From IMG/VR virus record IMGVR_UViG_2671180984_000014: a stretch of DNA of 64,000 bases, one strand, 5' to 3'. This stretch comes from a virus (Duplodnaviria > Heunggongvirae > Uroviricota > Caudoviricetes). Positions within the stretch are counted from its first letter, which is position 1. Each line of letters starts with the position of its first letter. The notes below the pieces were generated by a model that ran no database searches, had not been told where the DNA came from, and saw nothing but the letters and a program-made list of their open reading frames with translations. The position numbers and the translations under genes were made by a program. Positions 1 through 36,430 of the stretch are shown piece by piece.

Positions 1-2285
1 CCAGACGGAACGGTATCTGATGGCCACGGGATTGGTGCGCCGACTGGGTAGCTTTCTGGTGGAAGATTTTTCGAGGTATAAACTTCTGCCCAGTCTTCCT
101 CAAAACCATAACCGTCTCTTGAAGAACGGTAGAACAGACCACCATTTCTGTAATTCGCCTTCATCTGCAAGGTCGGGCAACTTCCGACTCCGGTATAGAA
201 GTTAACCAGAATATAGCTGTCGGCAGAGCGAATGACATTGTAAGCGCCTGATTCGGCATTCCAGGGAACGCCCCCATCCGCATCGGCATACGTATCCGTT
301 GCTCTTCTGGCAAAAGCAGCAACATGCGCAGCGGTTAAAGTGATATCAGTAGAACCATCAAACGAGACGCCATTGATAGTACATGCTGTCTGCAACTTGG
401 TCGCTGTAGCCGCATTACCAGAGGTGTCCTGATCCCCTTTGGCATTGACGCCGGGAATTGAATCTTTTGACGTATAGACCTGCGCCCATTCAGACCAGTT
501 GGCAGAATCAGTATCACGCCGCGAACGGATATGTACGGGCGCATGGTCACCGCTCGTGCCACTCCAGCCAATGAATAACTCACCTTCGCCAGCAGCGGTG
601 GCACCTTTAAGGTGAAGCACATTGCCATAGGTGGAAGGGTAGCCATTGTTGTATGCCTCATACAGCTGAATCCCGGATGTTCCCTGTGCATTCGCCTCTA
701 GGGCCGTTACGCGACCGCGAGATACCAGAGTATTGATATTAATGTCAGCCGAACCATCGAACCTGACGCCATTAATGTTTATGGCTGTTTTTAATTTCGT
801 CGCGGTGTCGGCGTTCCCTGTCAGCGCCCCGGTGATCCCGCCGTTGAAACTCTGGCGCGCACTCCATGTGTTAGCCGTGCTCAACAGGGGGATCTTTTCA
901 CCGCTGGTACCGAGTTCTCTTAAACCAAGGTATTGGATAACGGCCTGTGTGCTTGTTTTAGCCAGAATATCGCGACCGACTGACGTTAAATCAGTCTGAG
1001 CTACCGTATCCTTACCAGTGAAATAAGGCAGTTTGTTTGCACCAGTCGCAAGGGCAGCGAGAGCGGTTAAAGTTGCATCCAGAGGCTGTTTGCCTGCCAG
1101 CGCATTTGTCATTGTTGTCGCAAAGTTCGGGTCATTGCCAAGTGCTGCGGCAAGCTCATTCAGGGTATCAAGAGCTTCTGGTGATGAACCAACCAATGCG
1201 GATATGGCAGCTCTTACATAAGCGGTCGTAGCAATCTGCGTGTTATTCGTACCCTGTGCAGCGGTAGGCGCAGTAGGTATTCCCGTTAATGCAGGACTTG
1301 CTAAAGGAGCTTTAAGAGCCAGAGCATTGTTGATAGTTGTGCTGAAATTCGGGTCGTTATTGATCGCAGCAGCTATTTCTTTAAGCGTATCCAGTGTGCC
1401 AGGTGCACCGTTGATAAGTGCCGTTATAGCTGCCTTAACAAAGGCTGTATTTGCGATCTGCGTGCTATTTGTACCTTGCGCTGCCGTCGGCGCGGTTGGC
1501 GTTCCTGTCAGACTCGGGCTTTCTATTGGCGCTTTGGTATCAGCAAGATCTTTTACAGACTTAACGGCTTTAGGGGTAGCCGCCATTGTTTCGCTGTCGC
1601 TGTTAGTTTCGCTACTGAGCTGAACTAATCCCTTTTGCGTTGTGCTTGCATCCTGCGCCGTATACTTACTGTTCGCCAGATCGTAGGCTTTTTTAACTGC
1701 CAGCGAACTTGCAGCAACATCACTTCTGCTACTGGTTACAGAGTCTGAAATATCAATGCCGATCGTGCGGTTAATACGCTCGGATGTATCAATCATCTCC
1801 TGGGTAATGGCTGATACTCCAGCAGGGATATTCACCGTACAAACAAGCAGCTCCCCATCTCCTAACTGATATGAATCGGTATAGGTTCTGGTAACAAATT
1901 CAGCCGCATGAATATGTGACGCGGTATTAACCTGATAGGTATCCTCTCCAAGGAGGTATCTTCCCTTCAGCACAATTGCATATTTCTTGCCTGCACTAAG
2001 TGCAAGAGGAATATCCGTACATTGCTGAATAGTTACCTGGTAGAATTCACCAATATCCACCGACGCCGCGCCTGCGGTTTTATCTCCATCCACTGAGGTG
2101 ATTAACAGGTTCATCCCACCGCCAGGCTTAGGTAAGAAACCGGCATAAAATCCCGGGTCAACAATCCCCCTGAATTTTCGGTTTAGCGCGGCTGACAGAT
2201 ATGGTTCGTGGTATTGCACATCAGCAACCAGAGCCAACGACTCGGGTGATGGGTAAGTAACCGATGTAACAACTGTAACGTCATT
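1..2285 (-). CDS. tail fiber protein, N-terminal ~760 codons; gene runs off the window start
   Basis: Minus-strand frame open from ATG at 2285 to the window edge (absent from ORF track because no in-window stop). Reverse-complement translation of 1441-1640 reads QKGLVQLSSETNSDSETMAATPKAVKSVKDLADTKAPIESPSLTGTPTAPTAAQGTNSTQIANTAFV, the tandem tail-fibre repeat; last codons in window read PESYPVGAPIPWPSD. Confidence 0.8.
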
Positions 2286-2299
2286 CATCAAGCATATCC

Positions 2300-2734
2300 T
2301 TATGCTGTAGTCGTGTTTATGGCCATAACTGCGGTATATGTTTTGCCCACATACAGCGAGTCTTCCTGGACACAAATAATGGCGATTGGCTTGTTCTCGT
2401 TATCCAGAACAACCAGAGTGTTGAATGGGTAGTTTTTCCCTTCCTGCAACTGGCTTTGATCAAGGTCCATTCGGACAGTAATTATCCCACCTGAGTAGGT
2501 TGGCACGAGGTTGATGGTACAAAATTGGCTGGTCAGTTCTGCCAGATCGAAAGCCTTTGGCAGTTCTCCAATCTCATAAGTGCCATCTCCTTTCTTAGTA
2601 ACCAGAGAACTGGTACCGAAAACGGCCTTGCTGATTAAAAATCGAGAGCCTTTGTTAATGGACGATTCAGCGCGCCGCTGATAGTAATAGTCCAACAACT
2701 GACTCTTATAGAGGTTTGTTGAGACGTCAGACAT
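2300..2734 (-). CDS. small tail-fiber-associated protein (144 aa)
   Basis: ORF immediately upstream of the tail-fiber gene on the same strand; call by synteny only. Confidence 0.4.
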   Translation of the reverse strand: MSDVSTNLYKSQLLDYYYQRRAESSINKGSRFLISKAVFGTSSLVTKKGDGTYEIGELPKAFDLAELTSQFCTINLVPTYSGGIITVRMDLDQSQLQEGKNYPFNTLVVLDNENKPIAIICVQEDSLYVGKTYTAVMAINTTTA

Positions 2735-2812
2735 GATTTTCCCTAATCACTGTTGTGAAGCCTCATTGTAAGAGAAGTAACTTGTCACCCCGCCCTGCGG
2801 ACGGGGTGATTG

Positions 2813-3652
2813 TCAGGCGTCGCTATCCAGCAACAAATCATCTGCGCGGGTGCGATCAAACGTAGGTGTCGCTTTCACAATAGTGCCACCAGGCGTTGCG
2901 GTGATCGGGGCGCTAATCGACGTAACTCCAGTAAGCGAAGTTGTATCCGAAGTTTCAAACCAGCAGAATGCTTTTTCGGTATCAGAAATCTCGTTCAAAG
3001 TGATCATGTCGGCCTGTTCATTTACAACAACCGACAAATAGAGCGTAAGCCCATCAAACACTATATGCAGTGGCAGTAGAGGCTTTACGAACTGATTAAA
3101 CTTTCTGAGAATTTCTTCTGTAATTGCGGACTGATCTATCGTGCCAGTAATACCCATTGTCCGGGCCAGGTCGTTTATGGGAATACTGATCATCCCTCTG
3201 GAAGTCAGAAACATCTCGCCGAATGTGCCGCCGGTAGTCTCCAATGTGCTTTCTGGTATTAGAACTGTGCCATAGGGATGACGCTCAAGGTCCACCGGTG
3301 CATATATCGGATCCCATAAAACAGAAATACCGTTAAATTCGCGGTAAATTGTCTGGTTTATAGGACGTTCAGTTCCCTTAAAGTGGATCTCATCAAGCCG
3401 CTGTTGTAACAACATCGGAACGGAAGATGAGTCCGAGGTTCTGATAGTAAAGAACTGGCCAAGTTCATTTGTCCTGGTCTCCAGATCCTCCTTGCTCATG
3501 GAGAAAATAGACTTCCGGTTGGTAATTCGCTCCAACCATGGGTCAACAAAGGTGTCCATCATTGACTGAACCAAATCAGCCAATGATTTATAGAGCAATG
3601 ACTTTTGCTTAGCTGATGTAAGCCGGTTATTAAACCAGGAACGCTGCATCAC
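2813..3652 (-). CDS. baseplate/tail assembly protein (279 aa)
   Basis: ORF in tail operon; start overlaps stop of upstream gene by 4 bp (translational coupling). Confidence 0.4.
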   Translation of the reverse strand: MMQRSWFNNRLTSAKQKSLLYKSLADLVQSMMDTFVDPWLERITNRKSIFSMSKEDLETRTNELGQFFTIRTSDSSSVPMLLQQRLDEIHFKGTERPINQTIYREFNGISVLWDPIYAPVDLERHPYGTVLIPESTLETTGGTFGEMFLTSRGMISIPINDLARTMGITGTIDQSAITEEILRKFNQFVKPLLPLHIVFDGLTLYLSVVVNEQADMITLNEISDTEKAFCWFETSDTTSLTGVTSISAPITATPGGTIVKATPTFDRTRADDLLLDSDA

Positions 3653-5082
3653 TCCTCCTCATACGAAATATTAAAGGTGGAGTTTTCTGTATCCAGATAA
3701 ACGAAATCGTAAAAGCCGTTGGACTCATTCCACTCGACAAATTCCAGATAAAAGTCGCGGAAATAACCCAGCGTTTCGATAAACGCCCAAACGTCTTTTT
3801 TCTTAATCAGGATGTACTTCCCGACGCGGTTCGGATCAAAGAAAGTTGAGTCGCGCCCAAATTTTGTTTCCAGTGCCGACTTCAGCTCATCGGTCACATT
3901 CTCAATGGTCAGGCTTGCCGATATCCGTCCGGTGATGGTTATCTTAAATGGTAGTTTTCTGACCTCTTTATACGAGAATTTCTTGTTCAACTCATTCGGC
4001 ACCTTCTTAAAGGCAGCCAGGATCATTTCTTCAAGCTCTGACTGGCTTTTATTTGGATGCCACCCTGAAATAAATATCTTATTGATATTCCGAACATTAT
4101 AAGCACCATCTAATTTCTCTTGCTGGCCTTCGCCCCATGCCTTTACCCATGACAGTCCCGGGATGTTACGCACCAGAAAATACGTATAGTCCCCGCCCCA
4201 TACGACCTGATCATCATAGGCAAGGTAATATTGTGCACGATTACGTGTGATCTCCGTTGTTTCGGCATCGGTACCTGCGGTTATGGGTGTCGTTGTCTTA
4301 ACTGAAATCAAATTAGCTAAATTAGCCGCAGAATCGACAGGCGTCAGATTTTGGCCAGCAACCAAGGTTATATCTCCGTTGGTGCACCATACCTTAAGTG
4401 TAATGGTCGAGCCTTCTGGCGGTATTTGCCCAATTAGCCCATCACCGAATCGAACCCCCAACTGCTCGGATGGTTTATAAAACTCAACGTAGACTTGGCT
4501 TTTACTACCGGCTAACCGGAACATAGTGCTGGAAGACCACTGCGTGGTCTTACCATCGGTCGTCACGAATACTTCCAGCTTATAGCAGACAGCAGTGAGA
4601 GCCTTTGATAACACGACTTCCAGAAATTCTTTGGCTGCCGTAACGGTATATGTCACCTCCTGGATTTCCAACTGTGCCACTTCTACCGTACCGGTGCCGT
4701 CAACCAACCTGCATACATCCATAGTCATGTAAGGGTACTGGTCGTCAGATATTAAAGGCATGTTTTTGGGGATTACCGCTGGGGCATCTTCACTTGTGGC
4801 GGTGATCTCAATCATCCCCGATGACGGTGTTGGCTTGGTACCAACATAATTGTTCGTTTCTGCCGCAGCCAGGATAGAGGAACGCCGCGTCGCGGTCGAT
4901 ATAAAGCCTTCAGCCAGCGCCGCATCGGCATATTGAAAACACCTGTACACAATCTGGGTAATAAACAATATCAGCATCGAGACAAATTGAGAGCCGACAA
5001 ACTTCGACCAGAATGAATCTTTCTCGACAAGCTCTTCAAACTCTGCACGAATACTGTCTTTAGTCGGTGTTGTTTTACTCAT
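3649..5082 (-). CDS. baseplate-associated structural protein (477 aa)
   Basis: ORF in tail operon, overlapping stop/start with neighbours. Confidence 0.4.
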   Translation of the reverse strand: MSKTTPTKDSIRAEFEELVEKDSFWSKFVGSQFVSMLILFITQIVYRCFQYADAALAEGFISTATRRSSILAAAETNNYVGTKPTPSSGMIEITATSEDAPAVIPKNMPLISDDQYPYMTMDVCRLVDGTGTVEVAQLEIQEVTYTVTAAKEFLEVVLSKALTAVCYKLEVFVTTDGKTTQWSSSTMFRLAGSKSQVYVEFYKPSEQLGVRFGDGLIGQIPPEGSTITLKVWCTNGDITLVAGQNLTPVDSAANLANLISVKTTTPITAGTDAETTEITRNRAQYYLAYDDQVVWGGDYTYFLVRNIPGLSWVKAWGEGQQEKLDGAYNVRNINKIFISGWHPNKSQSELEEMILAAFKKVPNELNKKFSYKEVRKLPFKITITGRISASLTIENVTDELKSALETKFGRDSTFFDPNRVGKYILIKKKDVWAFIETLGYFRDFYLEFVEWNESNGFYDFVYLDTENSTFNISYEEE

Positions 5083-25170: not shown

Positions 25171-25506
25171 CTACTTAATGCGCTCGAGAATCCCTCCCCA
25201 CATATCATTTAGATATTCGATATGAGCCAAAACCTTATCAAGACACTCTCGTGTAAACCATTCAGTATGCCCGCCACCGGCGCTTTTCTCCCACGGCGCA
25301 TTCCAGGGGAAAAAGGTTGCGTGTAAAGCCCGCTCAAGATTAACCATTGCCAAACGCGTACCACGATAGACCCGTGAAAGCGCAAAATCGGGACTCACTT
25401 GTAGCCCTTTAAACCGTGCCAATGGACCACATGAAATGCCGATTTTAAAAGTATCTCCGTTCTCCGGCACCAGAACGTAGAGGTAGTGTTGTTTCTCTTC
25501 TTGCAT
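25171..25506 (-). CDS. T5orf172 / GIY-YIG-like domain protein (111 aa)
   Basis: YLYVLVPENGDTFKIGIS ... GGHTEWF resembles the T5orf172 signature. Confidence 0.45.
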   Translation of the reverse strand: MQEEKQHYLYVLVPENGDTFKIGISCGPLARFKGLQVSPDFALSRVYRGTRLAMVNLERALHATFFPWNAPWEKSAGGGHTEWFTRECLDKVLAHIEYLNDMWGGILERIK

Positions 25507-29554: not shown

Positions 29555-30452
29555 GCACTGGAAAAACATTACTATTTATAAACTTTCTCGTGAGGCGGAT
29601 CTGACCGACTTAGAAGATAAAAAGAAAATGATCCTTTTCACGCCATGCGGTAGTCAGGATATGGCCAAGTTCGGTTTTGTATCGCCATTTGGTGATAATT
29701 CTGAAGTTATCGCTATGCATGGAAATGGTTTTATCCTTGTTGAAGCAAAGCGCGAAACAAAAATTCTTCCCCCGCCGGTTATCCAGCGAGCTATTCAAGA
29801 AAAAATTGAAAAACTTGAGCAAGAACAAGCGCGTAAACTGAAGAAAACAGAGAAGGACTCCCTGAAAGACGAAGTTCTGCATTCTCTTCTGCCACGGGCT
29901 TTTTCAAAGTTTTCTGTTATCCAGGCGATCTACGACGGTTCAACTAAACGTATCTATATCAATGCCAGCGCGCGGCAGGCAGAGGATATGCTCGCGCTTA
30001 TGCGTAAGTCTCTGGGTTCTCTTCCTGCTGTTTCCCTGAGTGTTGAAAATCCCATTGAATTAACGCTGACCGACTGGGTACGTGATGGTAGTGCTCCACA
30101 GGGATTTCAAATGGGGGATGCGGCAGAACTTAAGGCAGTGCTTGAGGATGGCGGTATTGCCCGAGTGAAAAAGCAGGATTTGGGAAGCGATGAAATTTCC
30201 ACACACCTGGAAGCTGGCAAGCTCGTCACTAAGTTGGCACTCGACTGGCAGAACCGCATTAAATTTACACTGGACCATAACTTCAGCCTTACCAGCGTCA
30301 AATTTGCGGATGAATTGCTTGAGCAGAACTCTGATATTGATAGTGAAGATGTTGCGCAGCGACTGGACGCAGATTTCTTCCTGTTGACCAGTGAAATTTC
30401 GTGCCTGGTTGATGCTCTGGTAAATGCCCTTGGCGGAGAGGCTAAGCAGTGA
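29547..30452 (+). CDS. hrdC: RdgC homolog (recombination-associated protein)
   Basis: [16 protein letters not shown]...[15 protein letters not shown]...[30 protein letters not shown] aligns along full length with E. coli RdgC; start set at internal ATG 29547. Confidence 0.8.
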
Positions 30453-33400
30453 AAGAGCTGTGCTATGGATCTGTTTGCAGTGGAATTGAAGCCGCGAGTA
30501 TTGCCTGGGAACCGTTGGGTATGCGTCCGGCGTGGTTTGCTGAAATCGAGCCTTTTCCATCGGCCGTTCTTGCGCTCCGCTGGCCCCATGTTGCCAACCT
30601 TGGCGACATGAAAAAACTTGCCAAAAAAGTCTTGGCTGGGGAAATCGAATCCCCTGACGTGCTCGTCGGGGGAACACCATGTTTTACCGCGGGGCATATG
30701 GTTCTTTGTAAAAATGGCTATAAACCAATAGAAAATGTTTGCCCTGGTGATTACGTAGTCAGTCATCTCGGGCGGTTACAACAAGTAAAAAGAGTTGGTT
30801 CAAAAATAGCTAATACGGGGTTACTTAATGCCGTTGGGCAGCCTTTAGGTATAAGAACAACCAATGACCATCCCTTCCTGGCTGTTCGGTGGAAAGCCCA
30901 AAACACCCGGAAAAATGGCACATATTTTAAGAGAGAGTTGTTGTCTGAACCGGAATGGCGAGCAGCATGTGATATGCCGGGATATCAATGGTGCGCTCTA
31001 ACTAATTTCAATATTGCATTTCCAGATATTTGTTCTCGGTTCTTGTCTGAAGAACAGGCTATGTATCTTGCGGGCGCTTATGTTGGCGATGGATATATTA
31101 GGAGATGGAGAGGTAAATCTAAGAAGGCGGTTGTTTTTGGCATAAATTGCCAGAAATTGAGAAAGTTTCATTGCCGCATACCAGAAAACATATTTTCCGT
31201 GGCAAGCGAAATCCGAGGGAGCATCAAAGTAACCTTGAATGATACGTGTTATGCCAATTGGCTTAATGAACATTTTGGCGAGTTAAGCCATGCTAAGCGT
31301 ATCCCTGCATGGGTGATGTCGCATCCATTGCGTCATGTGTTTTTACAAGGCTATCTTGATACTGATGGGACACCAAGTGGTAAAGCGGGATTTAGAATTA
31401 ATAGTGTTAGTTCTGCGCTTGCTTGGGGCGTTGCGGGGTTGTCACAGACTTGTGGTTATGTTTCTTCGGTCAGCTTTATTGAAGTTGAGCCCAAAAAAGT
31501 GATCGAGGATCGCGTGGTAAATCAACGGAATTATTATCAGGTAACAATCTGCCCGCAGAAATTGTCACGTAAATCAAGATTGGCTCATGGAATGCTTTTA
31601 CGAACAGTCAAAGAGTTTAAATCGGTAGGCCTAGATACTGTATACAACATAGAAGTCGAAGGTGATCATTCCTATATCCTCAATGGTGCGGTGGTCCATA
31701 ACTGTCAGGCATTCAGTATCGCGGGATTACGTGGTGGGCTTGATGATGAGCGTGGCGCGCTAACTTTAAAGTATGTGGAGCTTGCAAATGCAATTGACGA
31801 CAAACGGGCTGAGTCATTTCTCAAACCAGCCGTTATCGTCTGGGAAAATGTCCCAGGAGTCTTGTCATCGGCAGATAACGCCTTCGGATGTTTCCTTGCC
31901 GGATTGGCTGGAGAAGATGTGCCATTTGAACCAGGTGATCGACCTGAATCAGGAAAAAGCAACGCGTTCTGGCGGTGGGATGGCAAAACCGGTTGCCATG
32001 TTCCAAAGTGGCCGCAGTGTGGTTGTATTTATGGACCGCAGCGAAAAGTGGCCTGGAGAATCCTTGATGCCCAATACTTCGGAGTGGCACAACGACGCCG
32101 ACGCGTGTTTGTTGTCGCAAGTGCTCGAACAGATCTCGATCCCGCAACGGTACTTTTTGAGTTCGAAGGCGTGCGCCGGAATATTGCGCCGAGCAGAGGC
32201 GAGGGGAAGGAAACTACCAGATATACTTCAAACATCGCTATCAGAACTTGCGATGATACAAACATAATTGCCATGGCACATGGGCAAGGAGGGGCTGAGA
32301 TAAAAACCGATAATTCGGCACCAACTTTGACATGTAACCATGAAGCACCAATTGTATTGCTCGGCGACGGTAGAATGCGCCGTCTTACCCCTGTCGAATG
32401 TGAAAGGCTGCAAGGTTTTCCTGATTGGCATACGTTGATCCCTACGGAAAAGCGTAAAAAAGTTAATTCAGATGAACTGGCATATCTGCACAATCACTAT
32501 CCAGATTTAAGCGAAGAAGAGGCCGCAATGCTTGCAGCTGACGGACCGCGTTACAAAGCGATCGGCAATAGTATGGCAATACCAGTAATGCGCTGGATTG
32601 GCGATCGGATTACTAAGGCCGTATGTCGGCAGAAAGAAGGAAGTGAAACAAAAGAGCGAAAAGTTAAACCAGCGGCAGAATTCGAACGGTCCATATTCAA
32701 ATGGGCTGGTGGAAAATTTGGTGTTCTGGAACAAATCTTTCGCTATTTGCCAGAAGGGAAGCGCCTGATTGAACCTTTCGTTGGTGGCGGAGCTGTCTTC
32801 ATGAATGCCGGATACCAGGAAAATCTGCTAAATGATGTGAATGCTGACCTGATTAACTTTTACAAGACTCTGCAACGCGAGGCGCATTCACTTATCACTC
32901 TGGCACATCGTTTCTTCCAGGACTACAACACACAGGAAGGATACCTGGCAGTACGGAATGCGTTTAACAAACAAGTCTATGATGATTTACATCGCGCAGC
33001 GGCGTTTTTGTTCCTGAACCGACATTGTTTTAACGGATTGACGCGTTACAACCAGGCCGGTGAGTTCAATGTCGGTTATGGGAAGTATAAAACTCCGTAT
33101 TTCCCATTACAGGAGATGGAAGCCTTCCTCGGTGCGGAAGGGCGGTCTGAGTTTGTATGCGGTGATTTTGCAGCGGTGATTGAAGCTGCCGGAGAAGGAG
33201 ATGTCATCTTTTGCGATCCGCCGTATGAACCGCTTCCAAATACAGAGGGATTCACGAACTATTCCGGTCATGACTTTAAGTTTGAAGAGCAAAAACGCCT
33301 GGTGTCTCTGTTGACGGATGCTCATCGTCGAGGTGCAAAGGTTCTCATTACTAACAGTGGCGCGCCAAACATCAGAGAGCTTTATCATGACAGTGGCTTC

Positions 33401-33490
33401 AGAGTGGAACCTCTTTTTGCCAGACGTTCTGTGTCTTGTAAGGGGGACACTCGAGGTGTAGCTCATGACGTTTTGGGTATATTGCTCTAA
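30449..33490 (+). CDS. dmt: bifunctional DNA methyltransferase: N-terminal C5-cytosine MTase (intein-interrupted) fused to C-terminal Dam-like N6-adenine MTase
   Basis: GTG start overlapping hrdC stop; C5 motifs GGTP|[22 protein letters not shown]; Dam motifs KWAGGK and DPPY. Confidence 0.8.
30680..31702 (+). other. intein (341 aa) with LAGLIDADG homing-endonuclease core inside dmt
   Basis: Begins Cys ([20 protein letters not shown]), block [19 protein letters not shown] and [10 protein letters not shown], ends [21 protein letters not shown] followed by Cys+1. Confidence 0.8.
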
Positions 33491-34162: not shown

Positions 34163-34237
34163 GATGGTGTAGCTCAGCGGTAGAGCAGTTGGCTGTTAAC
34201 CAACTGGTCGGTAGTTCGAATCCACCCACCATCGCCA
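34163..34237 (+). tRNA. tRNA-Asn (anticodon GTT)
   Basis: Acceptor GATGGTG/CACCATC, anticodon loop CTGTTAA, T-loop TTCGAAT, 3' GCCA. Confidence 0.8.
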
Positions 34238-34242
34238 CTTTA

Positions 34243-34328
34243 GGGGAGTTAGTCCGTAGGGGTAGCGGGGTAGACTGTAAATCTACTGTCATTGCGACTC
34301 GGGTGGTTCGACTCCATCACTCCCCACC
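34243..34328 (+). tRNA. tRNA-like element, anticodon loop CTGTAAA (GUA, Tyr-like) with long variable arm and irregular D-arm
   Basis: Acceptor GGGGAGT/ACTCCCC, perfect anticodon stem GTAGA/TCTAC, T-arm GGTGGTTCGACTCCATC, ACCA end; D-arm does not fold canonically. Confidence 0.4.
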
Positions 34329-34333
34329 ACATT

Positions 34334-34409
34334 GCCGATTTAGCTCAGTTGGTAGAGCAGTCGCTTTGTAAGCGAATGGTCAGCGGTTCGATCCCGTTAA
34401 TCGGCACCA
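34334..34409 (+). tRNA. tRNA-Thr (anticodon TGT)
   Basis: Acceptor GCCGATT/AATCGGC, D-arm GCTCAGTTGGTAGAGC, anticodon loop TTTGTAA, T-loop TTCGATC, CCA. Confidence 0.8.
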
Positions 34410-36354: not shown

Positions 36355-36430
36355 GGCCCTTTAGCTCAGTGGTTAGAGCTGGCGACTCATAATCGCACGG
36401 TCACCGGTTCAAGTCCGGTAGGGGCCACCA
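36355..36430 (+). tRNA. tRNA-Ile2 type (anticodon CAT; could be read as Met without lysidine)
   Basis: Near-identical in architecture to E. coli ileX: acceptor GGCCCTT/AGGGGCC, anticodon loop CTCATAA, T-loop TTCAAGT, CCA. Confidence 0.8.

What the first reader, a model, noticed from the sequence alone, without database searches (positions are those of the whole stretch)
30680..31702. Intein with LAGLIDADG endonuclease core inserted at the catalytic Cys of the methyltransferase PCQ motif
The C5-MTase half of the Dcm/Dam fusion is interrupted after ...VLVGGTP by 341 residues that start with Cys, carry the intein block B (TTNDHPF), two LAGLIDADG motifs, and end ...[12 protein letters not shown] followed by Cys+1. 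Precise excision rejoins GGTP to CQAFSIAG, i.e. a canonical motif IV. The enzyme would therefore be inactive for cytosine methylation until the intein splices, and the endonuclease core suggests the element can home into intein-less alleles. I do not recall an intein in the P1 methyltransferase, so this may be lineage-specific.
Basis: partly seen in the sequence, partly recalled or inferred. Interest (0 to 1): 0.7.

Follow-up and report, generated by a model that had tools for sequence, protein, structure and literature searches.

The report
Mobile intein splitting P1-like Dmt methyltransferase
The DNA methyltransferase gene of this P1-like phage-plasmid is interrupted, exactly at its catalytic cysteine, by a canonical self-splicing intein with a homing endonuclease; the element is a textbook example of its kind but is unannotated and sits in about 30% of P1-like elements in E. 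coli.

Summary
Window 30680..31702 (+) is a 341-codon in-frame insert in the 1013-aa Dcm/Dam fusion gene dmt (30449..33490). It starts with Cys, ends in His-Asn and is followed by Cys. P1, P7 and many P1-like plasmids lack exactly these 1023 nt and read GGTP|CQAFSIAG.

Profiles (LAGLIDADG_3, intein_Cterm) and a confident AlphaFold model identify a class-1 intein with a double-motif LAGLIDADG endonuclease. The model's best PDB matches are PI-SceI, VMA inteins and PI-PfuI. The +1 Cys aligns with the catalytic Cys81 of M.HhaI.

About 30% of P1-like dmt alleles in complete E. coli genomes carry it (152 against 337 genomes), on at least three target-recognition-domain backgrounds. One carrier is a laboratory P1 stock. 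In 35 intein-bearing alleles the intein is about six times less diverse than the adjoining N-extein. The synonymous base next to the insertion tracks occupancy perfectly: CCA in 147/147 occupied sites, CCT in 346/346 empty ones. This fits recent horizontal spread, probably by homing.

Related inteins occupy the same P|C site in C5-methyltransferases of many phages and bacteria. Splicing and cleavage are inferred, not shown. Verdict: a real, ordinary-mechanism, apparently undescribed new member of a known kind.

The parts
30449..33490 (+). dmt gene: 1013-aa precursor made of a C5-cytosine methyltransferase half, the intein, and a Dam-type N6-adenine methyltransferase half
   Evidence: ORF. Pfam PF00145 7e-30 and PF02086 2e-56. 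TIGR00571 dam 249 bits. 97-99% identical to dmt/dam of P1-like phages.
30449..30679 (+). N-extein, 77 aa, ending ...VLVGGTP (first half of motif IV). The last codon is CCA.
   Evidence: The CCA codon is found in every occupied allele and in no empty one.
30680..31702 (+). Intein, 341 aa, 38.3 kDa, pI 9.4, 42.7% GC
30680..31030 (+). N-terminal splicing (Hint) lobe, about residues 1-117. Contains Cys1 (block A) and Thr61/His64 (block B, TxxH).
   Evidence: C1, T61 and H64 are invariant across 9 inteins of 29-53% identity. The model is all-beta in this stretch, block pLDDT 80-97. Hint_2 matches residues 1-49. The domain boundary is approximate.
31031..31489 (+). LAGLIDADG endonuclease core, about residues 118-270. 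Motif 1 is [10 protein letters not shown] (130-139, Asp137); motif 2 is [11 protein letters not shown] (221-231, Asp229); Lys206 is conserved.
   Evidence: PF14528 at 3e-8, above cutoff. D137, G138 and K206 are invariant. Helices 124-137 and 218-229 in the model. Foldseek matches to I-DmoI and I-SceI at about 4e-5. D137, K206 and the ORF are intact in 36/36 copies. D229 is read directly from the motif; it is replaced in only 2 homologues, P0009 (Asn) and P0015 (Glu). The boundary is approximate.
31490..31702 (+). C-terminal splicing lobe, about residues 271-341. Block F is [12 protein letters not shown]; block G is NGAVVHN with His340 and Asn341.
   Evidence: TIGR01443 intein_Cterm 30.8 bits against cutoff 15.6. 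The Spl DnaX mini-intein C-terminus aligns at E=1.5e-3. N341 is invariant.
31703..33490 (+). C-extein, 595 aa. It begins with Cys+1 of CQAFSIAG (catalytic Cys of motif IV), followed by the [23 protein letters not shown] and GNS motifs, a variable target-recognition region and the Dam domain.
   Evidence: The spliced sequence aligns with M.HhaI FPC81QAFS. The PF00145 match becomes contiguous over residues 8-135 and rises from 104.9 to 125.8 bits after in-silico splicing.

Best explanation
This is a canonical class-1 intein carrying a monomeric double-motif LAGLIDADG homing endonuclease. It is inserted between Pro and the catalytic Cys of motif IV (PCQ) of the C5-cytosine methyltransferase half of a P1-like Dmt.

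Inferred mechanism. The 113-kDa precursor is translated through the insert. Cys1 makes an N-S acyl shift, assisted by Thr61 and His64. The thioester is passed to Cys+1. Asn341 cyclises, assisted by His340, and releases the intein. An S-N shift then leaves a normal Pro-Cys peptide bond. The products are a 672-aa Dmt with an intact motif IV and a free 38-kDa endonuclease. Before splicing the C5 active site is split and should be inactive, while the C-terminal Dam domain need not be affected.

The free or precursor-borne endonuclease is inferred to cut empty dmt alleles at the GGxACxCCT|TGTCAGGC junction when two P1-like genomes meet in one cell. Repair from the occupied allele then copies in the intein plus at least the adjacent base.

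Shown here: the anatomy, the fold (predicted), the presence/absence polymorphism, and the population signature of recent spread. Inferred: splicing, cleavage and homing.
For: Exact in-frame presence/absence at one site, with motif IV restored on removal.

All splicing residues are present and invariant across inteins down to 29% identity.

LAGLIDADG_3 and intein_Cterm score above their curated cutoffs.

The AlphaFold model has pLDDT 90.9 and pTM 0.88. Its top Foldseek hits in the PDB are all bifunctional intein endonucleases: PI-SceI 4e-18, TliVMA 1e-16, PI-PfuI 1e-11 and PI-PkoII 2.5e-9. Free-standing I-DmoI and I-SceI follow.

All 36 fully sampled copies are open reading frames with C1, T61, H64, D137, K206 and H340-N341 intact. 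Segregating sites across 19 haplotypes are 18 synonymous and 18 nonsynonymous, and pairwise dN/dS is 0.14-0.57. Both indicate purifying selection.

Spread: the intein is in 152 of 5426 complete E. coli genomes, against 337 with an uninterrupted junction. It is in 126-129 of 498 PLSDB plasmids that carry dmt.

Identical inteins sit on three target-recognition-domain types.

In 35 occupied alleles, nucleotide diversity is 0.60% in the intein, 3.9% in the adjoining N-extein and 1.4% in the proximal C-extein. Third-position segregating sites are 6% in the intein against 32% in the N-extein. For window versus L011 there are 22 differences in 231 N-extein nt and 11 in 1023 intein nt, Fisher p=8e-10, with the switch within 7-15 nt of the junction.

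The synonymous base at -1 is A in 147/147 occupied and T in 346/346 empty E. coli records, as expected if the flank is co-converted.

The same proximal C-extein exists with and without the intein: L009 versus L016, 0 differences in 480 nt.

The intein's GC content is 42.7%, against 54.5% and 48.4% in the exteins.

An infectious laboratory P1 stock (OP279344) carries the intein, so it is compatible with a working phage.
Against: No experiment shows splicing, cleavage or homing.

Pfam Hint_2 is just below its gathering score (28.1 against 28.4 bits). The Intein_splicing match is weak, and TIGR01445 (intein N-terminal region) did not report a hit.

P1-like phages recombine freely. The low diversity of the intein and its presence on several backgrounds could come from ordinary homologous recombination or a sweep, without endonuclease action.

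Nonsynonymous polymorphism is, if anything, more frequent in the endonuclease core (11 nonsynonymous: 7 synonymous) than in the splicing lobes (7: 11). The difference is not significant (p=0.32), so strong selection on cleavage is not demonstrated.

C5 methylation by P1 Dmt itself is annotated only as 'perhaps'.
Confidence: 0.9

Rival explanations
1. The intein still splices but its endonuclease no longer cuts. Its distribution would then reflect one old invasion, followed by vertical descent and the ordinary homologous recombination that makes P1-like genomes mosaic.
For: A single shared -1 base (CCA) in all occupied alleles fits a single origin. Exteins are visibly mosaic, with four target-recognition-domain types. 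pN/pS in the endonuclease core is not lower than in the splicing lobes. A homologue, P0009, has Asn in place of the second catalytic Asp, so endonuclease decay does occur in this family.
Against: D137, D229 and K206 are intact in this allele, and D137 and K206 were checked in all 36 sampled copies. The drop in diversity begins within about 10 nt of the N-junction rather than at arbitrary recombination points. The intein is younger than its flanks on many backgrounds.
Confidence: 0.25
2. The insert does not splice. It would be a dead intein that knocks out the C5 half, leaving a 113-kDa protein that works only as a Dam methylase.
For: The Dam domain is C-terminal and self-contained, so the phage could tolerate loss of the C5 half. 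C5 activity of P1 Dmt is only 'perhaps' in the P1 annotation. Decayed hosts exist elsewhere: in Mannheimia the C-extein is lost, and in Sphingopyxis Ser replaces Cys at +1.
Against: All nucleophiles and assisting residues are kept in 36/36 copies and across relatives of 29-53% identity. There is no stop or frameshift inside any of 38 copies. The C5 motifs downstream remain intact and conserved in occupied alleles. A dead insert would be expected to accumulate damage.
Confidence: 0.07
3. The segment is not an intein but a different in-frame mobile insertion, or a normal accessory domain of the methyltransferase. An example of the former is the ShiLan-type HNH element described in actinophage methylases.
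For: In-frame non-intein homing insertions in phage methylases have been described (PMC11855218, PMC9957025).
Against: The Hint blocks A, B, F and G, the fold match to PI-SceI and VMA inteins, and the Cys1/Asn/Cys+1 boundaries are all present. The segment is absent from two thirds of orthologues.
Confidence: 0.01

Closest known systems
PI-SceI (yeast VMA1 intein) and the archaeal VMA and PI-PfuI/PI-PkoII intein endonucleases
   Same: They share the architecture: a Hint splicing domain split by a double-motif LAGLIDADG endonuclease, with Cys1, terminal His-Asn and Cys+1. They are the best structural matches, at E from 4e-18 to 2.5e-9 and TM (query-normalised) 0.53-0.64.
   Different: Sequence identity is only 11-17%. 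The host proteins differ (V-ATPase, RNR, polymerase) and so do the hosts (eukaryote, archaea). The intein here is smaller: 341 aa against 361-537 for those chains.
Inteins in mycobacteriophage and actinophage DNA methylases (DNMT-1/2 of Kelley et al. 2016, PMC5050341; Gosselin et al. 2023, PMC9957025)
   Same: These are also LAGLIDADG inteins in phage DNA methyltransferase genes. They show patchy distribution and evidence of transfer between divergent methylases.
   Different: Their exteins are N6_N4 (amino) methyltransferases of actinophages. Here the extein is a C5-cytosine methyltransferase (PF00145) of an enterobacterial phage-plasmid, and the insertion splits the catalytic Pro-Cys dipeptide.
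Unnamed inteins at the same P|C site of C5-methyltransferases in other phages and bacteria
   Same: They share the insertion point and, for the closer ones, the start CF(T/V/P)AG and a similar length. 54 of 54 IMG/VR relatives and more than 12 species genomes carry them, at 26-54% identity. The genomes include Metarhizobium, Gemmiger, Blautia, Bacteroidaceae and a Desulfurococcales archaeon.
   Different: They sit in other methyltransferase lineages. Some are mini-inteins without an endonuclease (P0019, 141 aa). Some have a degenerate endonuclease or a decayed host gene. I found no paper describing this insertion site.

Membership tests
Intein (Hint-fold protein-splicing element, class 1) | Nucleophile (Cys/Ser) as first residue, at an in-frame insertion absent from orthologues | tested here: met
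   Cys1 at 30680. The insertion is absent from P1, P7 and others, with exact boundaries. C1 is invariant in alignment A3.
Intein (Hint-fold protein-splicing element, class 1) | Block B TxxH motif | tested here: met
   T61-N-D-H64. T61 and H64 are invariant across 9 inteins of 29-53% identity.
Intein (Hint-fold protein-splicing element, class 1) | Blocks F/G: C-terminal His-Asn followed by Cys/Ser/Thr at +1 | tested here: met
   [12 protein letters not shown]...NGAVVHN|C. TIGR01443 scores 30.8 bits against cutoff 15.6. N341 is invariant.
Intein (Hint-fold protein-splicing element, class 1) | Hint fold | tested here: met
   Tested on a predicted structure only: AlphaFold pLDDT 90.9, with Foldseek top hits PI-SceI, VMA inteins and PI-PfuI at probability 1.00. 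Pfam Hint_2 scores 28.1 bits, just under the 28.4 cutoff.
Intein (Hint-fold protein-splicing element, class 1) | Excision restores a conserved, functional host motif | tested here: met
   The spliced sequence reads GGTPCQAFS and aligns with M.HhaI FPC81QAFS. PF00145 rises from 104.9 to 125.8 bits and its best stretch becomes one contiguous match over residues 8-135 spanning the junction.
Intein (Hint-fold protein-splicing element, class 1) | Protein splicing actually occurs | not testable with these tools
   This needs expression and detection of the 75-kDa and 38-kDa products. Indirect support: an infectious lab P1 carries the intein, and all 38 sampled copies are intact.
LAGLIDADG homing endonuclease (monomeric, two-motif) | Two LAGLIDADG helices, each ending in an acidic residue | tested here: met
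   LAGAYVGD137G and GYLDTD229G. PF14528 scores 34.2 bits against cutoff 22.5. The helices lie at 124-137 and 218-229 in the model.
LAGLIDADG homing endonuclease (monomeric, two-motif) | Alpha-beta-beta-alpha-beta-beta-alpha core fold, duplicated | tested here: met
   Tested on the predicted model: Foldseek hits to I-DmoI (4e-5), I-SceI (8e-5), I-AniI and I-OnuI variants over the core.
LAGLIDADG homing endonuclease (monomeric, two-motif) | Site-specific cleavage of the empty allele, and homing | not testable with these tools
   Only population signatures are available. They are low intein diversity against the flanks, three target-recognition-domain backgrounds and perfect linkage of the -1 base. 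These are consistent with homing but do not prove it.
C5-cytosine DNA methyltransferase (extein) | Motif IV Pro-Cys catalytic dipeptide plus motifs VI (ENV), VIII (QxRxR), IX and X (GNS) | tested here: met
   PF00145 at 3e-36 on the spliced protein. The alignment to M.HhaI includes PCQ, ENV, RRLTPxECxRxxGFP and GNS. The motifs can also be read.

The most novel reading that the evidence does not exclude
The intein may be more than a passenger. It sits on the catalytic Cys and uses a Cys1/Cys+1 pair, so splicing could be conditional, for example sensitive to redox state or temperature. That would time or gate m5C methylation by Dmt during P1 development. Its endonuclease could also act as a weapon that cuts the dmt gene of competing, intein-free P1-like plasmids or superinfecting phages. 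That would bias inheritance much as marker exclusion does in T-even phages. The invariant CCT in all 346 empty sites could even reflect a cleavage-resistant variant rather than simple ancestry.
Probability: 0.1. Interest if true: 0.7.

Novelty: new member of a known kind. Interest (0 to 1): 0.42.

Why it matters
P1 is one of the most tractable phages, and P1-like phage-plasmids are common in pathogenic and drug-resistant E. coli and Salmonella. A natural, polymorphic and apparently intact intein/homing-endonuclease pair in these elements, including a laboratory P1 stock, would give a convenient system in E. coli. Intein homing, co-conversion and the invasion-decay cycle could be measured between co-resident phage-plasmids.

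It also matters for annotation. The gene is labelled only 'Dam family methyltransferase', and its size (113 kDa) and C5 activity are misread if the intein is ignored.

The P|C site of C5-methyltransferases also emerges as a widely used intein insertion point in phage genomes, one I could not find described. Mechanistically nothing here departs from textbook inteins.

Tried and rejected
Literature. Eight full-text searches found no description of an intein in P1 dmt or in any C5-methyltransferase. Terms included intein with phage P1, P1-like, cytosine methyltransferase, DNA methylase, cytosine-5 and extein. Only N6/N4-methylase inteins of actinophages turned up. Absence from this open-access library does not prove the element is undescribed; InBase and REBASE could not be consulted.

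PDB sequence search with the intein gave only weak hits: Spl DnaX mini-intein at 1.5e-3 and PI-PkoII at 0.024. The structural route was needed instead.

Profiles. TIGR01445 (intein N-terminal region) gave no hit, and Hint_2 and Intein_splicing fell below their cutoffs. PHROGs matched only an intein-bearing anaerobic RNR family.

It was repeated with the 7 closer inteins.

A test of relaxed selection in the endonuclease core against the splicing lobes was inconclusive (p=0.32).

The insert as an intron, a free-standing endonuclease gene or an accessory domain was considered and rejected. The frame is continuous, the Hint blocks are present, and the segment is absent from orthologues.

The coordinates I transferred from pO111_2 for a neighbouring GIY-YIG gene were off and the Pfam call failed. 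The ORF was located but not analysed further.
Full report
**1. The observation**

The window holds one long ORF, 30449..33490 on the + strand, of 1013 aa. Its translation reads ...DVLVGGTP | CFTAGHMVL... ...[12 protein letters not shown] | [12 protein letters not shown].... The first Cys codon is at 30680-30682 and the Asn codon at 31700-31702.

Pfam finds a C5-cytosine methylase (PF00145, broken into several stretches) and a D12-class Dam domain (PF02086, 2e-56) in the whole protein. Inside the insert it finds LAGLIDADG_3 at 3e-8 and 34.2 bits (cutoff 22.5), Hint_2 at 28.1 bits (cutoff 28.4), and a weak Intein_splicing match. NCBIfam adds intein_Cterm (TIGR01443) at 30.8 bits against a cutoff of 15.6.

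**2. Presence/absence at one site**

The gene is the dmt (dam) gene of P1-like phages. Six alleles were aligned. P7 Dam (672 aa), MH422554 (672 aa) and reference P1 Dmt (754 aa) lack exactly the 341 residues and read GGTP|[10 protein letters not shown]279344, vB_EcoM-Ro157c2YLVW and RCS47 carry them. The extra 82 aa of P1 and Ro157c2YLVW lie elsewhere, in the variable target-recognition region.

The window's dmt is 100% identical to that of plasmid pO111_2 of E. coli O111:H- 11128.

**3. What the insert is**

The splicing signature is complete:
- Cys1.
- Thr61 and His64 (block B).
- [12 protein letters not shown] (block F).
- NGAVVH340N341 (block G).
- Cys+1.

C1, T61, H64, D137, G138, K206 and N341 are invariant in an alignment of nine inteins sharing only 29-53% identity. 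The two LAGLIDADG motifs are LAGAYVGD137G and GYLDTD229G.

An AlphaFold model built on 12 sequences is confident, with pLDDT 90.9 and pTM 0.88. Its top 16 Foldseek matches in the PDB are all bifunctional intein endonucleases: PI-SceI at 4e-18, TliVMA at 1e-16, PI-PfuI at 1e-11, PhoVMA at 4e-11 and PI-PkoII at 2.5e-9. Free-standing LAGLIDADG enzymes I-DmoI and I-SceI follow.

After in-silico excision the PF00145 match becomes one contiguous stretch over residues 8-135 and rises from 104.9 to 125.8 bits. The junction then aligns with M.HhaI ...GFPC81QAFSISG.... Cys81 is the known catalytic nucleophile of M.HhaI (established knowledge), so Cys+1 of the intein is the catalytic Cys of the methyltransferase.

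The intein has 42.7% GC, against 54.5% in the N-extein and 48.4% in the C-extein.

**4. Distribution**

| Collection | dmt present | Empty junction | Intein present |
|---|---|---|---|
| Complete E. coli genomes (5426) | 492 genomes | 337 genomes | 152 genomes |
| PLSDB plasmids | 498 plasmids | not counted | 126-129 plasmids |

The PLSDB carriers are from Escherichia, Salmonella and Shigella. All are annotated merely as 'Dam family ... methyltransferase'.

[quoted passage not shown] An infectious laboratory phage therefore tolerates it.

**5. Population signature**

Nine occupied and ten empty alleles were fetched, and 27 further occupied loci came from IMG/VR.

All 36 fully covered copies are open and keep the checked key residues.

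Identical inteins occur on three target-recognition-domain types, with gene length minus intein of 2019, 2265 and 2424 nt.

Diversity among 35 occupied alleles:

| Segment | Nucleotide diversity | Third-position segregating sites |
|---|---|---|
| N-extein (231 nt) | 3.9% | 32% |
| Intein (1023 nt) | 0.60% | 6% |
| Proximal C-extein (480 nt) | 1.4% | 15% |

For window versus L011 there are 22 differences in the 231-nt N-extein and 11 in the 1023-nt intein (Fisher p=8e-10). The last extein difference is at -7 and the first intein difference at +15.

L009 (occupied) and L016 (empty) have identical proximal C-exteins.

The intein is thus younger than the gene around it and has moved between diverged alleles. 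That is the expected footprint of homing, although general recombination could produce it too.

**6. The base next to the insertion**

In my sample, every occupied allele has Pro codon CCA at -1 and every empty one has CCT. I tested this at scale with 54-nt junction queries designed so that a mismatch at -1 prevents a megablast seed.

| Junction | -1 codon | Records found |
|---|---|---|
| Empty | CCA | 0 (two flank types tried) |
| Empty | CCT | 122 + 224 = 346 |
| Occupied | CCT | 0 |
| Occupied | CCA | 147 |

All 36 further loci also have CCA. The nearest foreign relatives (54% identity, L127 and L128) read ACA CCA as well.

The simplest reading is that the A arrived with the intein and is co-converted, or tightly linked, at every transfer. 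No precise intein loss, which would leave an empty CCA site, is seen among the 346 empty sites. An alternative that cannot be excluded is that CCT protects empty sites from cleavage.

A minority of occupied alleles (L008, L011 and 11 E. coli records) carry a further distinct tract at -22..-7 that none of the empty alleles in my sample has. This may be a longer co-conversion tract.

**7. Selection**

Pairwise dN/dS within the intein is 0.14-0.57. Across 19 haplotypes there are 18 synonymous and 18 nonsynonymous segregating sites. The endonuclease core has 11 nonsynonymous to 7 synonymous and the splicing lobes 7 to 11 (p=0.32). Purifying selection is evident overall. Specific selection on cleavage is not demonstrated.

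**8. Relatives**

Protein search with the intein alone returned only proteins that also contain PF00145. In those where the junctions are visible, the insertion is GGTP|C...N|CQ.

The species-genome scan found inteins at the same site in C5-methyltransferases of Metarhizobium (48%), Gemmiger/Clostridiales (38-39%), Beijerinckiaceae, Coriobacteriales, Mesorhizobium, Blautia, Bacteroidaceae, Deferribacteres and a Desulfurococcales archaeon. Weaker hits were inteins of other proteins: the recurring ...NSPTLMNAG...|C...HN|CFVLP exteins look like ribonucleotide reductase and one ...YIEG|C...|CTAPRY extein like SufB. These host assignments are my reading of the flanking residues, not a profile test.

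In IMG/VR, all 54 loci whose junctions I examined have the element at P|C...N|C(Q/T/A) of a methyltransferase-like extein. One locus, L142, has three in-frame stops and a degenerate C-terminal junction.

A 141-aa mini-intein (P0019), an endonuclease with Asn for the second catalytic Asp (P0009), and decayed hosts (Mannheimia; Sphingopyxis with Ser at +1) show the usual intein life cycle.

**9. Comparison with what is known**

The architecture and predicted chemistry are those of textbook class-1 inteins such as PI-SceI.

Inteins in phage DNA methylases are known, but in N6_N4 amino-methyltransferases of actinophages (PMC5050341; PMC9957025). I found no paper on an intein in a C5-methyltransferase or in P1 dmt. 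Domain databases already tag fragments as 'Hint domain-containing' or 'DOD-type homing endonuclease'.

I therefore rate it a new member of a known kind. It has an apparently undescribed insertion site and a well-resolved polymorphism in a model phage family.

**10. Verdict**

What is shown is the anatomy, the predicted fold, the exact polymorphism, its frequency and a footprint of recent horizontal spread. What is inferred is splicing, dependence of C5 activity on splicing, endonuclease activity and homing.

Interest is moderate. The mechanism is ordinary, but the system is useful and unannotated.

Noticed in passing
L005 (AF234172, reference P1) locus 1501-3765, codon 74; corresponds to window about 30668-30670: Reference P1 c1-100 mod749::IS5 Dmt reads VLVWGTPCQ. 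All 18 other alleles examined have VLVGGTPCQ. The change is G to T at nt -12 from the insertion site. A Trp in motif IV might impair the C5 half in the classic lab strain.
   Followed up: partly
window about 32200-32500 (variable region of dmt) and loci L002, L009, L016, L017: The target-recognition region of the C5 half comes in at least four length types: gene length minus intein of 2019, 2265, 2424 and 2589 nt. This suggests swapping of specificity modules among P1-like phages.
   Followed up: partly
window 30449-33490: On the intein-bearing precursor, the NCBIfam dcm model TIGR00675 scores 95.5 bits, below its 100.65 cutoff. RefSeq names the gene only 'Dam family ... methyltransferase', and neither the C5 half nor the intein is annotated. 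Intein-free alleles get the same name, so the intein may not be the cause.
   Followed up: partly
L038 (Sphingopyxis sp. GW247-27LB) 4001-5047: A related intein at the same site is followed by Ser instead of Cys (HN|SQGFSLAG). The spliced methyltransferase would lack its catalytic Cys.
   Followed up: no
P0010, L133, L134 (Mannheimia haemolytica and IMG/VR contigs): The intein is intact, but the C-extein reads CQSDKGGTVKASGGG... and ends soon after. The host methyltransferase has decayed while the intein ORF persists.
   Followed up: no
L107 (IMGVR_UViG_2597489893_000002): The N-extein of this occupied allele is frameshifted, with stops in frame, while the intein itself is open. This is either a pseudogene or an assembly error.
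   Followed up: no
window 25171-25506 (-): A 111-aa ORF here appears to correspond, by approximate position only, to a gene annotated 'GIY-YIG nuclease family protein' in RefSeq pO111_2. It may be a second homing-type nuclease in the window. My Pfam check failed on wrong coordinates.
   Followed up: no
window 34163-34409 and 36355-36430 (+): There is a tRNA-Asn, tRNA-Tyr and tRNA-Thr cluster plus a tRNA-Met downstream of dmt. Reference P1 and P7 are annotated with only Asn and Thr at the same place, within the roughly 1.5 kb downstream that I fetched. Ro157c2YLVW also has the Tyr gene.
   Followed up: no
L008, L011 and 11 E. coli records (90-95% identity class); N-extein nt -22..-7: A subset of occupied alleles carries a distinct five-substitution synonymous tract just upstream of the intein. 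None of the ten empty alleles examined has it. It may be a longer co-conversion tract from a foreign donor.
   Followed up: partly
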